This document shows, in pieces, positions 27,501 to 30,500 of a stretch of 64,000 nucleotides of DNA (position 1 is its first letter; every line of letters starts with the position of its first letter). The position numbers are program-made. This DNA is from Haliotis rufescens. Taxonomy: Eukaryota. The stretch is taken from contig NW_025964372.1 of the NCBI RefSeq assembly GCF_023055435.1, forward strand, positions 43,710,001-43,774,000, read 5' to 3'.

Positions 27501-30500
27501 GTGTCCTCATGACAATTGCAGGGCAGTATTGGCCCCAGTACCCCATACGTGTGTCCTCATGACTATTCCAGGGCAGTATTGGCCCCAGTACCCCATACGT
27601 GTGTCCTCATGACTATTCCAGGGCAGTATTGGCCCCAGTACCCCATACTTGTCTCAAGACTATTCCAGGTCTGGTTACTGTTCAATGGCTTGGCAGGCCC
27701 TGACTCAGGGATTTACAGGCCTCTAGGATATAGCTGCCTGCAGTGAAGAAAACCAAACAATAACTCACTGAGGTTTCAGTCTGAATTGAAATTTGACAAA
27801 CAGTTAATTTACTATAGCCAAAAGAAGGAATGACCAAACTGATGAAAATAATAATTTTGCTTTACTTTTCAGGGGCCAATTGGACCTGCAGGCCCTAAGG
27901 GAAACAGAGGCGTAAAGGGAGTGAAGGTACTGTCAACATGACACTTTTTACAGCTGATGATTCTGTATGTTAACTGGGTCGGCATGACCTAACAGATCCA
28001 GAGGAATATAGGGTTGTGTATGTTTACTGGGTCGCCATGACCTCACAGATCCAGAGGAATATAAGGTTGTGTATGTTTACTGGGTTGCCATGACCTCACA
28101 GATCAAGAGGAATATAGGGTTGTATATGTTTACTGGGTCGCCATGACCTCACAGATCCAGAGGAATATAGGGTTGTGTATGTAAACTGGGTCGCTATGAC
28201 CTCACAGATCCAGAGGAATATAGGGTTGTGTATGTTAACTGGGTCGCCATGACCTCACAGATCCAGAGGAATATAGGGTTGTGTATGTTAACTGGGTTGC
28301 CATGACCTCACAGATCACGAGGAATATAGGGTTGTGTATGTTAACTGGGTCAACATGACCTCACAGATCAAGAGGAATATAGGGTTGTGTATGTTGACTG
28401 GGTCAACATGACCTCACAGAACAAGTATTAGGTTGTATATGTTAACAGTTGCAATGACCTCACAGGTCAAGGGGGATATGGAGTTGTGTATACTGACAGG
28501 GTCGCTGTGACCTCACAGGTCAAGAAGGATATAGAGTTGTGTATATTAACAGGGTCGCTGTGACCTCACAAGTCAAGAGGAATATTGTGTTGTGTATATT
28601 GACAGGGTCACTGTGACCTCACAAGTCAAGGGGAATATAGAGTCGTGTATGTTATCAGGGTCGCCATGACCTCACAAGTCAAGGGGAATATAGGGTTGTG
28701 TATGTTATCAGGGTCGCCGTGACCTCACAAGTCAAGGGGAATATAGGGTTTTGTATGTTATTAGGGTCGCCTTGACCTCACAAGTCAAGGGGAGTATAGG
28801 GTTGTGTATGTTATCAGGGTCGCTGTGACCTCACAAGTCAAGGGGAATATAGGGTTGTGTATATTATCAGGGTCACCATGACCTCACAGGTCAAGAGGAA
28901 TATTGAGTTGTGTATAGTGACAGGGTCGCTGTGACCTCACAGGCCAAGAGGAATAATGAATTGTGTATATTGACAGGGTCGCATTGACCTCACAAGTCAA
29001 GGGGAATAATATAGAGTTGTGTATGTTATCAGGGTCGCCGTGACCTCACATGTCAAGGGAACGTAGTGCAGTGTATGTTTTCTGCGTACTTGTGATTTTA
29101 TGATTGTGTACAGACCCACTATGACTACATGATTGTGTGATAACAGGGTCACTGTAAAATACAGAAATTGTCAGTAAATCTCTCAGTTGTGAGACATGAT
29201 GTCACCATGGTCACCATGGCCCAAGAAATCAAGGGGGATATATGACTGTGTGTGTTAACAGGGTACCTTGAGTACAATATTGTGTGTTAACAGGGTCACC
29301 GTGGTCACCATGGCCCTACAAATCAAGGGGGATATATCATTGTGTGTGTTAACAGGGTACCTTGAGTACAATATTGTGTGTTAACAGGGTCACCGTGGTC
29401 ACCATGGCCCTACAAATCAAGGGGGATATATCATTGTGTGTGTTAACAGGGTACCTTGAGTACAATATTGTGTGTTAACAGGGTCACCGTGGTCACCATG
29501 GCCCTACAAATCAAGGGGGATATATCATTGTGTGTGTTAACAGGGTACCTTGAGTACAATATTGTGTGTTAACAGGGTCACCGTGGTCACCATGGCCCTA
29601 CAAATCAAGTGGGATATAGGACTGTGTGTGTGTTAACAGGGTACCTTGAGTACAATATTGTGTGTTAACAGGGTCACCGTGGTCACCATGGCCCTACAAA
29701 TCAAGGGGGATATATCATTGTGTGTGTTAACAGGGTACCTTGAGTACAATATTGTGTGTTAACAGGGTCACCGTGGTCACCATGGCCCTACAAATCAAGG
29801 GGGATATATCATTGTGTGTGTTAACAGGGTACCTTGAGTACAATATTGTGTGTTAACAGGGTCACCGTGGTCACCATGGCCCTACAAATCAAGTGGGATA
29901 TAGGACTGTGTGTGTTAACAGGGTACCTTGAGTACAATATTGTGTGTTAACAGGGTCACCGTGGTCACCATGGCCCTACAAATCAAGGGGGATATAGGAC
30001 TGTGTGTGTTAACAGGGTACCTTGAGTACAATATTGTGTGTTAACAGGGTCACCGTGGTCCAATGGGACTGATGGGAATGGATGGAGAGCCTGGCCCCAA
30101 GGGAGAGCCTGGCCCACGTGGAGTTGAGGGTACCAAGGGAGAGAAGGGCGACACGGTAGGTTTAGCATGCAAAAAAAGAGACATAGTTAAACACCTGCTT
30201 TGGCAGACAGTATAATCATATTGTTGATGTGAACAATAACATTTAGATAAATCAAACTTTTTTTAAGTGAGTTTAAGTCTTCAGTTGGGTCCAGTGTACT
30301 GGGTGAAAGGGATCTGCCATTGTTAGCAGTGCTGGTGTCAGTTATTGATGGTGAGTGAGTGAGTGAGTTGGGTTTAACGCCTTTAACAGTATTCCAGTTA
30401 TATCACGGCGTGTCAGCTTAATGTGGGAGGAAAGCCCAAAGTGATGCAGGTCTCAGATGTTTACCACTTTGGTGAAACCCACGAGCATGGGTATGGTGCT

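What the first reader, a model, noticed from the sequence alone, without database searches (positions are those of the whole stretch)
27962..30060. A 2.1-kb intron built almost entirely from copies of its own 3' splice site, in three strata
Seen: intron c31-c32 has about 9 distal 53-bp units in which the acceptor reads actg|ggtc (AG lost). About 11 units follow with cag|ggtcgc, then about 9 proximal 94-bp units each carrying two ttaacag|ggt. Eight of these sites match the real site plus 13 exon nt. The spliceosome must therefore bypass roughly 28 AG-intact acceptor copies. Established: this junction forms KGHR, the helical cross-linking motif of fibrillar collagens. The decoys read GHR-GHH-GPT before losing register.
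Basis: partly seen in the sequence, partly recalled or inferred. Interest (0 to 1): 0.7.

Follow-up and report, generated by a model that had tools for sequence, protein, structure and literature searches.

The report
Collagen intron made of splice-site copies
An intron of a mollusc fibrillar collagen gene is almost wholly a tandem array seeded from its own 3' splice junction, a big example of a kind of junction-spanning minisatellite already described in amphioxus and human genes.

Summary
The intron between exons 27873-27926 and 30048-30155 is 2121 nt, and Tandem Repeats Finder covers 1963 nt of it (93%).

It has three blocks:
- nine 53-nt units with the acceptor AG changed to TG;
- eleven 53-nt units with AG|GGTC;
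- nine 94-nt units, each with two TTAACAG|GGT sites.

The array runs 13 nt into the exon. Eight decoys equal the real site from at least -94 to +13. The 53- and 94-nt units are homologous (z 15.3, 0 of 2000 shuffles).

By a matrix built from the gene's other sites, the real acceptor is weak (6.0 bits against a mean of 12.4). Nineteen decoys score higher. The upstream donor is the weakest of 32.

This junction is not special. Three more of the 68 junctions in the gene carry the same kind of junction-spanning array, about what random seeding predicts.

The closest known cases are amphioxus "mirage" minisatellites, the human F7 intron 7 VNTR and the CBS 844ins68 duplication.

I read it as a neutral minisatellite. 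Only the last copy adjoins a real exon body and a strong donor, so exon definition probably selects it. That step is inferred: no transcript or orthologue data could be reached.

Recursive splicing is not supported. It is a new member of a known kind, of modest interest.

The parts
27873..27926 (+). Exon c31, 54 nt (GPIGPAGPKGNRGVKGVK). Its donor AAG|GTACTG is the weakest of the 32 scored in the gene.
   Evidence: Donor -0.0 bits against a gene mean of 7.9 (sd 2.8).
27927..27976 (+). First 50 nt of the intron: the donor, then a diverged first repeat unit starting at about +6.
   Evidence: nt 6-16 match units A8/A9 at 11 of 11 (0 of 2000 shuffles); nt 35-50 match the A unit at 15 of 16 (0 of 2000). 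Long branch in the tree.
27977..28446 (+). Block A: nine 53-nt units (the last is 46 nt) whose acceptor dinucleotide reads TG. One shared A-to-T change.
   Evidence: Mean pairwise identity 0.927 over 8 units (the 46-nt unit was left out).
28447..28499 (+). Transitional unit, preceded by AACAG but lacking the GG (AG|TTGC).
28500..29085 (+). Block B: eleven units with an intact AG|GGTC. It is the most heterogeneous block. Its decoy acceptors score 5.6-11.8 bits.
   Evidence: Mean identity 0.791 over 10 units (the 56-nt unit 28977 was left out).
29086..29199 (+). Spacer. It holds an older copy of the 32-nt sub-unit followed by AG|GGTCACTGT at 29147.
   Evidence: spacer against the C unit, 21 of 25 matches, z 6.6, 1 of 2000 shuffles. 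Site 29147 scores 3.9 bits.
29200..30047 (+). Block C: nine 94-nt units (one is 96 nt). Each is a 62-nt sub-unit (53-nt core plus a 9-nt duplicate GGTCACCGT) followed by a 32-nt sub-unit. There are 17 decoy TTAACAG|GGT sites. The last AG (30046-30047) is the real acceptor.
   Evidence: Identity 0.962 over 8 units (the first unit was left out). Clade support 97/99.
30048..30155 (+). Exon c32, 108 nt (GHRGPMG...GEKGDT). The first 13 nt (30048-30060) belong to the repeat. Its donor ACG|GTAGGT is the joint strongest in the gene.
   Evidence: (acceptor 6.0 bits, donor 10.8 bits). Pfam Collagen match.
25226..25551 (+). Second acceptor-spanning array in the same gene. The 74-nt unit holds 15 nt of intron plus 15 nt of exon 25537-25644. 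There are 4 decoys upstream of the real site.
   Evidence: 4 copies with 0-2 mismatches in 24 nt.
16970..17463 (+). Donor-spanning array. The 88-nt unit holds the last 39 nt of exon 16901-17008 plus the donor. The real donor is the first copy. Five further units follow, the last cut short: three keep the GT and two read AT.
   Evidence: 4 copies at 4 mismatches or fewer.
8935..8997 (+). Donor-spanning 32-nt duplication at exon 8860-8949.
   Evidence: 1 copy, 1 mismatch.

Best explanation
This is a junction-spanning minisatellite of the type called 'mirage' in amphioxus.

Origin (inferred from the anatomy). A segment holding the last 40 nt or so of a short ancestral intron, plus the first 9-13 nt of exon c32, was duplicated in tandem. 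It was then amplified by replication slippage or unequal crossing-over in at least three waves:
- an old AG-intact 53-nt array (block B);
- a secondary amplification of a variant that had lost the AG (block A);
- a recent amplification of a 94-nt compound unit next to the exon (block C).
This swelled an intron of roughly 50-160 nt to 2121 nt.

Splicing (inferred, not shown). The copies are passengers, not a device. Splicing stays correct because only the last copy adjoins the true exon body. That body is rich in purines and GAR motifs and ends 108 nt later in the gene's joint-strongest donor, so exon definition would pick it. The decoys are followed by sequence with no GAR motifs, mostly with a G4-5 run, and by weak pseudo-donors.

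Occasional use of a decoy (inferred). It would meet a TGA after 23 codons, or add a 16- or 21-residue non-collagen insert. Either product should be removed or selected against.
For: Anatomy.
- TRF arrays run into the exon by 13 nt.
- The 53- and 94-nt units are homologous (z 15.3, 0 of 2000 shuffles).
- The units show no similarity to the exon beyond +13 (771, 1402 and 1933 of 2000 shuffles score as well). So the breakpoint lies inside the exon, and the direction is exon to repeat.
- The unit is absent from the rest of the 64-kb window.
- 93% of the intron is array, with a 158-nt remainder. That is close to the two shortest introns, 159 and 164 nt.

Blocks.

Gene-wide pattern.
- 4 of 68 junctions have tandem junction copies, against 0 hits for shuffled probes.
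- Observed 4-5 against 2.2 expected under random seeding.

Discrimination of the real site.
- The c32 donor scores 10.8 bits, joint best of 32.
- The exon beyond +13 has purine 0.68 and 10.5 GAR per 100 nt.
- The 8 identical decoys have purine 0.55-0.59 and 0 GAR, and 6 of 8 carry a run of 4 or more G. Only 3 of 34 real exons do.
- Read-through of a decoy meets TGA after 23 codons.

Precedents.
- Mirages do not disturb splicing (passages of PMC3087553 and PMC3902484).
- In CBS 844ins68 the distal of two identical 3' sites is used, and G runs between them favour it (passage of PMC1802585).
- The F7 pseudo-sites stay silent (abstract of PMC1557585).
- Abalone introns carry polymorphic minisatellites (passages of PMC6905558).
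Against: - No transcript, lariat or population data were reachable, so neither correct splicing nor neutrality is shown.
- Nineteen decoys outscore the real acceptor, 8 equal it and only 2 score lower. Both ends of the intron are weak. This makes silent bypass less self-evident than in a typical intron.
- Each 94-nt unit offers stop-free, in-frame pseudo-exons of 48 and 63 nt, with pseudo-donors of 6.8-7.9 and 2.6 bits. Use of decoys is therefore possible and need not trigger decay.
- The splice matrix rests on only 31 sites of one gene.
- GAR and G-run effects are carried over from vertebrate work.
Confidence: 0.7

Rival explanations
1. The array is a working decoy device. The many acceptor copies, with their pseudo-donors, engage the weak c31 donor or U2AF. 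This slows or blocks excision (intron retention or detention), so copy number tunes collagen output.
For: - 29 decoy AGs score 3.9 bits or more, 19 of them above the real site. The c31 donor is the weakest of 32.
- Pseudo-exons with both kinds of site occur in every 94-nt unit.
- The decoy-exon model applies to introns over 1 kb (abstract of PMC6097662; listing of PMC7373989).
Against: - The same kind of array sits at three other junctions, and arrays of other origin fill other introns. A generic mutational process is enough.
- There is no enrichment over random seeding.
- The distal block lost its AG and still amplified.
- Decoy exons in the cited work are conserved; here conservation is untested.
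Confidence: 0.12
2. Some decoys are used as cassette micro-exons. They would add one or more 16- or 21-residue non-collagen inserts directly after the cross-linking lysine, giving isoforms with a flexible break in the helix.
For: The 48- and 63-nt pseudo-exons are in frame and stop-free in 8 of 8 GGTCACC-type decoys. The 96-nt unit at 29576 offers 48- and 84-nt versions instead.
Against: - The pseudo-donor AGG|GTACCT scores 2.6 bits. The GTGTGT donors owe their score to a small matrix.
- The insert breaks Gly-X-Y after three triplets, next to a conserved cross-link site.
- No matching protein turned up in the one search possible, which gave only generic collagens at 77% identity or less.
Confidence: 0.07
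3. The intron is removed stepwise by recursive splicing at the repeated sites.
For: Many evenly spaced acceptor copies sit in a long intron.
Against: - A recursive site needs AG|GT. All 28 unit decoys read AG|GG.
- The 5 AG|GT juxtapositions score -1.7 or less as acceptors and -0.9 or less as donors. None lies in block C.
- A donor shifted by 1 nt would leave an extra base and break the frame (read from the sequence).
Confidence: 0.03
4. The repeat is a satellite or a remnant of a mobile element that landed in the intron and donated the present acceptor. The exon start would then copy the repeat, not the reverse.
For: The real acceptor is atypical for the gene (TTAACAG, 6.0 bits) and identical to the units.
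Against: - The unit is not found elsewhere in the 64 kb.
- The shared exon letters encode the conserved GHR of KGHR.
- The array ends in register inside the exon.
- No Rfam family matches.
- Genome-wide copies could not be searched.
Confidence: 0.04
5. It is an assembly artefact: a falsely expanded or collapsed tandem array.
For: Five 94-nt units are identical, which is hard for assemblers.
Against: Three diverged blocks, with internal substitutions, indels and a higher-order pattern (period 378), cannot be made by mis-assembly. Only the copy number is uncertain.
Confidence: 0.03

Closest known systems
Amphioxus 'mirage' minisatellites (Adh3, globins BflGb6 and BflGb9, troponin C, PGBD5)
   Same: These are minisatellite-like tandem duplications whose unit spans an intron/exon boundary, at either the 5' or the 3' boundary. 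Many units keep AG/GT signals. The authentic copy is the one contiguous with the exon. Units within a cluster evolve in concert. They are reported not to disturb splicing (passages of PMC3087553; one passage of PMC3902484).
   Different: - Here the host is a mollusc and the gene a fibrillar collagen.
- The array is larger: about 30 units against 3-6 in BflGb6.
- It is stratified into three blocks and fills 93% of the intron.
- Splicing and length instability are untested here.
- The founding paper (Canestro et al. 2002) is not held. The supplementary alignments were closed.
Human F7 intron 7 37-bp VNTR
   Same: The first element of this minisatellite spans the exon-intron boundary. The authentic site is therefore followed by identical pseudo-sites that stay silent (abstract of PMC1557585). 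It is the direct counterpart of the window's donor arrays at 16970-17463 and 8935-8997.
   Different: F7 concerns 5' splice sites, where the most upstream copy is chosen by 5'-to-3' scanning. The finding concerns 3' sites, where the most downstream copy must be chosen.
Human CBS 844ins68 (duplicated intron 7/exon 8 junction)
   Same: A duplication of a 3' junction gives two identical acceptors, and the distal one is used. G runs between the two sites promote the distal choice (passage of PMC1802585 citing Romano et al. 2002; passage of PMC2630376). Here 6 of the 8 identical decoys are followed by a G5 run, and 6 of the 11 block-B decoys by a G4 run.
   Different: CBS has one extra copy against about 29 here. 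The role of G runs in molluscs is untested. Romano et al. 2002 itself was not seen.
Decoy exons in retained introns (SF3B1 intron 4 and others)
   Same: These are cryptic exons with real splice signals inside introns over 1 kb. They bind U2AF without being spliced efficiently (abstract of PMC6097662).
   Different: Decoy exons are conserved, single and shown to promote retention. Here the copies are a young repeat, and retention is untested.
Recursive splice sites
   Same: Both involve internal acceptor-like sites in a long intron.
   Different: The defining juxtaposed AG|GT is absent from the decoys.

Membership tests
Junction-spanning ('mirage'-type) minisatellite | Head-to-tail array with a minisatellite-sized unit (10-160 nt) | tested here: met
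   Periods 53 and 94, with 21.2 and 9.1 copies.
Junction-spanning ('mirage'-type) minisatellite | The unit contains both intron and exon letters of a real splice junction | tested here: met
   The array ends at exon +13. Eight copies are identical to the 24-nt junction probe. There is no similarity beyond +13.
Junction-spanning ('mirage'-type) minisatellite | The authentic site is the copy contiguous with the rest of the exon | tested here: met
   Only 30048 continues into Gly-X-Y sequence with a donor 108 nt later. This is inferred from the reading frame, not from cDNA.
Junction-spanning ('mirage'-type) minisatellite | Regular splicing is not disturbed | not testable with these tools
   No transcript collection was available. 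Protein searches found no spliced product of this gene.
Junction-spanning ('mirage'-type) minisatellite | Length instability or polymorphism between alleles | not testable with these tools
Recursive splice site | A 3' site directly joined to a 5' site (AG|GTRAGT) | tested here: not met
   The decoys read AG|GG. The 5 AG|GT sites score -1.7 or less as acceptors and -0.9 or less as donors.
Decoy exon | A cryptic exon with an acceptor and a donor inside an intron over 1 kb | tested here: met
   48- and 63-nt pseudo-exons occur in each 94-nt unit. The intron is 2121 nt.
Decoy exon | Promotes retention of the host intron; conserved | not testable with these tools
   No RNA data or orthologues were available.
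Fibrillar collagen gene (host) | Gly-X-Y exons of 54/108 nt that begin with a Gly codon, plus a COLFI C-propeptide | tested here: met
   34 such exons. COLFI matches on four downstream exons, E 2e-8 to 5e-20.
KGHR helical cross-link site | K-G-H-R near the C-terminal end of the main helix | tested here: met
   c31 ends in K and c32 starts with GHR, read exon by exon. The K lies 93 residues before the end of the helix, counted over the exons. The motif is described in PMC4825002. Cross-linking itself is untested.

The most novel reading that the evidence does not exclude
The array is more than a passenger. Its roughly 29 competent acceptor copies face the gene's weakest donor. They might act as a copy-number-dependent brake on excision of this one intron, in the manner of decoy exons. 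Alternatively they might feed a ladder of in-frame 16- or 21-residue inserts right after the cross-linking lysine. Length alleles of the minisatellite would then change collagen amount or fibril cross-linking in the animal.
Probability: 0.1. Interest if true: 0.7.

Novelty: new member of a known kind. Interest (0 to 1): 0.35.

Why it matters
Eight decoys are identical to the real acceptor over at least 94 nt upstream and 13 nt downstream. That makes this a clean natural test of whether a 3' splice site is chosen by what lies beyond it rather than by its own sequence. It is the 3' counterpart of the F7 model for 5' sites, with many more copies than CBS 844ins68.

The four junction-spanning arrays in one gene extend the 'mirage' phenomenon from amphioxus to a mollusc. 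They also show how minisatellites can inflate introns right up to the few letters that selection protects.

If copy number varies between animals, the locus would be a handy marker. It could also be a modifier of collagen expression. None of this is shown yet.

Tried and rejected
- Transcript evidence. A C-propeptide exon found only one unspliced genomic ORF, from an unnamed Logan record. Exon c32 found only generic collagens at 77% identity or less. The spliced junction could therefore not be checked.
- Joining exons.
- RNA structure that might mask the decoys. Folding energies are ordinary. For the block C units plus the exon, z is -0.85 and 37 of 200 shuffles fold as well. For block B, z is -1.49 and 15 of 200 shuffles fold as well.
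- Small-RNA genes in the units. Rfam gave no match with E of 1 or less in 26800-31000.
- Unit copied from more of the exon than 13 nt: rejected.
- The 32-nt sub-unit as a copy of the ancestral whole intron. It is not significant against the c31 end plus the first 50 nt (55 of 2000 shuffles). Only the last 13 nt match the 62-nt sub-unit.
- The array at 27007-27669 as a copy of the c31 acceptor. This stays ambiguous: 9 of 1000 and 11 of 2000 shuffles score as well, but two other acceptors in the gene score higher.
- Five other large arrays show no likeness to their flanking junctions.
- One search compared typed consensus units and crashed part-way. Its comparisons were redone by coordinates, and one search is not relied on.
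- Pfam on ten minus-strand ORFs gave nothing.
- Literature. Searches found no junction-spanning minisatellite described in a mollusc or in a collagen gene. The library covers open-access papers only.
- Not available: orthologous introns, other haplotypes and genome-wide copies of the unit.
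Full report
**What the window is.** The plus strand carries a fibrillar collagen gene.
- It has 34 Gly-X-Y exons of 36-153 nt, mostly 54 or 108 nt. All begin with a Gly codon after AG and are followed by GT.
- Four downstream exons match the COLFI C-propeptide domain, E 2e-8 to 5e-20.
- An exon of the neighbouring minus-strand gene is 83% identical to the Haliotis asinina 'C05D11.1-like' protein. The next best hits are other molluscs.
- I therefore take the contig for a gastropod mollusc near abalones, not for human.
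- The N run at 19718-19904 was left alone.

**The observation.**
- Exon c31 (27873-27926) ends ...GVK. Exon c32 (30048-30155) begins GHR....
- The exons were read one by one. I left the joined step out, so KGHR is inferred from the two exon ends.
- The intron (27927-30047) is 2121 nt.
- TRF finds 27964-29079 (period 53, 21.2 copies, 86% matches). It also finds 29201-30060 (period 94, 9.1 copies, 97% matches). The second array runs 13 nt into the exon.
- Unit by unit:
  - nine units with xTG|GGT (27977-28446);
  - a transitional unit (28447);
  - eleven units with AG|GGTC (28500-29085);
  - a 115-nt spacer with one more AG|GGTCAC at 29147;
  - nine 94-nt units (29200-30047), each with two TTAACAG|GGT.
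- Eight decoys equal the real site over a 24-nt junction probe. One search shows identity over the whole preceding unit plus 13 exon nt.
- Unit motifs occur 18 and 28 times against 0.00 and 0.11 expected, all inside 27964-30050.
- The decoys read GHRGHHGPT and then lose the Gly register.

**Relations among the units.**
- The 53-nt unit aligns without gaps to positions 10-62 of the 94-nt unit (z 15.3, 0 of 2000 shuffles). So the 94-nt unit is a 53-nt core, plus a 9-nt duplicate (GGTCACCGT), plus a 32-nt piece.
- The 32-nt piece shares only its last 13 nt with the core (1 of 2000 shuffles).
- An older copy of the 32-nt piece sits in the spacer (21 of 25 matches, 1 of 2000).
- The first 50 nt of the intron is itself a diverged unit (11 of 11 and 15 of 16 matches, 0 of 2000 each).
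- TRF covers 1963 of the 2121 nt. The remaining 158 nt match the size of the gene's shortest introns, 159 and 164 nt.
- Beyond +13 the units show no likeness to the exon (771, 1402 and 1933 of 2000 shuffles score as well). The duplication breakpoint therefore lies inside the exon, and the copying went from junction to repeat.

**The three blocks.**
- Mean identity within blocks is 0.927 (A), 0.791 (B) and 0.962 (C). Between blocks it is 0.70-0.77.
- That gapless count left out units 28401, 28977 and 29200, which differ in length or phase.
- The tree of all 31 rows includes them. C is a clade (97/99, found in 100% of 200 bootstrap trees). A is one side of a branch (74/82, 78%). B is an unresolved grade. 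Labels cluster in 0 of 200 shuffles.
- The middle block is thus the oldest-looking. The AG-less distal block is a later amplification of one mutated unit. The proximal block is the youngest.
- The tree has no reliable root, so the direction of growth is not settled.

**Splice signals.** I scored sites with a matrix built from the gene's own other sites.
- The real acceptor scores 6.0 bits, fifth lowest of 32 (mean 12.4, sd 4.1).
- The c31 donor scores -0.0 bits, the lowest of 32 (mean 7.9, sd 2.8).
- The c32 donor scores 10.8 bits, joint highest.
- Of 136 AGs in the intron, 29 decoys score 3.9 bits or more: 19 above the real site, 8 equal to it and 2 below. The next best AG scores 0.1.
- Each 94-nt unit offers stop-free, in-frame pseudo-exons of 48 and 63 nt. 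Plain read-through meets TGA after 23 codons.
- The real exon beyond +13 has purine 0.68 and 10.5 GAR per 100 nt, with no run of 4 or more G.
- The eight identical decoys have purine 0.55-0.59 and no GAR. Six of the eight carry a run of 4 or more G. Only 3 of 34 real exons have such a run.
- The only YTNAY motif 12-47 nt upstream of the real site is the TTAAC of the preceding pseudo-acceptor.
- Folding is unremarkable (z -0.85 and -1.49). No Rfam family matches.
- Recursive sites are absent. The decoys read AG|GG, and the 5 AG|GT juxtapositions score poorly on both sides.

**Context in the gene.**
- I scanned all 68 junctions with 24-nt probes, allowing up to 4 mismatches. Four junctions have tandem copies in the adjoining intron:
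  - the donor of exon 8860-8949 (1 copy);
  - the donor of exon 16901-17008 (4 copies);
  - the acceptor of exon 25537-25644 (4 copies);
  - the acceptor of c32 (8 copies).
- Two further hits are a reciprocal match between two real acceptors. Shuffled probes gave 0 hits (sequences).
- The 21-nt array at 13598-15378 runs into the pyrimidine tract of the next acceptor (15 of 16, 0 of 1000 shuffles).
- One other array is ambiguous, and five are unrelated to junctions.
- If seeds fell at random in the array-collapsed gene, 2.2 would span a junction. Four or five do (P 0.18 / 0.07).
- No special mechanism, and no link to KGHR, is needed.

**Comparison with what is known.**
[quoted passage not shown] They occur at both kinds of boundary, keep AG/GT signals, evolve in concert and do not disturb splicing (passages of PMC3087553; one passage of PMC3902484). 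The founding paper is not held, and the supplements were closed.
- The human F7 intron 7 VNTR spans a donor, and its identical pseudo-sites stay silent (abstract of PMC1557585).
- In CBS 844ins68 a duplicated 3' junction gives two identical acceptors. The distal one is used, and G runs between them help that choice (passages of PMC1802585 and PMC2630376).
- Decoy exons promote retention of large introns (abstract of PMC6097662).
- KGHR is the helical cross-link motif (passages of PMC4825002; KGH pattern including abalone chains, passages of PMC5120351).
- Abalone introns carry polymorphic minisatellites (passages of PMC6905558).
- My searches found no such array reported in a mollusc or in a collagen gene.

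**Verdict.**
- The structure is real and striking in size, but it belongs to a known kind.
- The origin by repeated junction-spanning tandem duplication is well supported by the anatomy.
- Selection of the last copy by exon definition is the most likely mechanism, but it is inferred.
- Functional use of the decoys is not excluded and is the bold reading (about 0.1).
- Transcripts, other haplotypes, orthologous introns and genome-wide copies stayed unchecked, because no eukaryote sequence collection was available.

Noticed in passing
window 16970-17463: An 88-nt array whose unit is the last 39 nt of exon 16901-17008, plus its donor, plus 49 nt of intron. The real donor is the first copy. Of the five further units (the last cut short), three keep ATG|GTAAGT and two read ATGATAAGT (GT lost). 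It mirrors the human F7 VNTR.
   Followed up: partly
window 25226-25551: A 74-nt array with four decoy copies of the acceptor plus the first 15 nt of exon 25537-25644 (TGCAG|GGTGAGATGGGTATT). Three are identical to the real junction over 24 nt. This is a second acceptor 'mirage' in the same gene.
   Followed up: partly
window 8935-8997 and 9255-9383: A 32-nt duplication of the donor junction of exon 8860-8949. A 54-nt array further into the same intron holds another donor-like copy (13 of 14 matches, 1 of 1000 shuffles).
   Followed up: partly
window 13598-15378: A 21-nt unit repeated about 85 times. It ends 7 nt before exon 15386 and continues into that acceptor's pyrimidine tract (15 of 16 matches).
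   Followed up: partly
window 20112-22432: A 63-nt unit repeated about 37 times, with higher-order periods of 126 and 189. It makes up 2321 of the 2808 nt of the largest intron. It shows no likeness to the flanking junctions.
   Followed up: partly
window 27007-27669: A 50-nt array (13 copies) in the preceding intron. Every unit holds an acceptor-like TTCCAG|GGC or TTGCAG|GGC followed by Gly-codon-like sequence. Its origin from the c31 acceptor is ambiguous.
   Followed up: partly
window 33556-33588: A run of 11 arginine codons (K then R x11 then S) lies just after the end of the triple helix, in the C-telopeptide/propeptide exon. This is unusual for a fibrillar collagen. It might be a processing site or a simple codon-repeat expansion.
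   Followed up: no
window 31499-31534 and 32375-32410: Two 36-nt Gly-X-Y exons, with AG before and GTGA after each, that a five-triplet filter missed. With them, the K of KGHR lies 93 residues before the end of the helix.
   Followed up: partly
window 15374-15397 and 17959-17982: The acceptor junctions of exons 15386 and 17971 match each other at 21 of 24 positions. This suggests exon paralogy within the gene.
   Followed up: no
window about 45300-56000, minus strand: A neighbouring gene for an M16-type peptidase-like protein ('C05D11.1-like'). The best named match is Haliotis asinina at 83% over one exon. Its introns also hold large arrays, for example a 36-nt unit repeated 49 times at 49546-51326.
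   Followed up: partly
window 30340-30400 and 35543-35765: Recurrent GTGAGTGAGTGAGT...GGGTTTAAC elements (and their reverse complement) that look like a dispersed short repeat family. They were not characterised.
   Followed up: no
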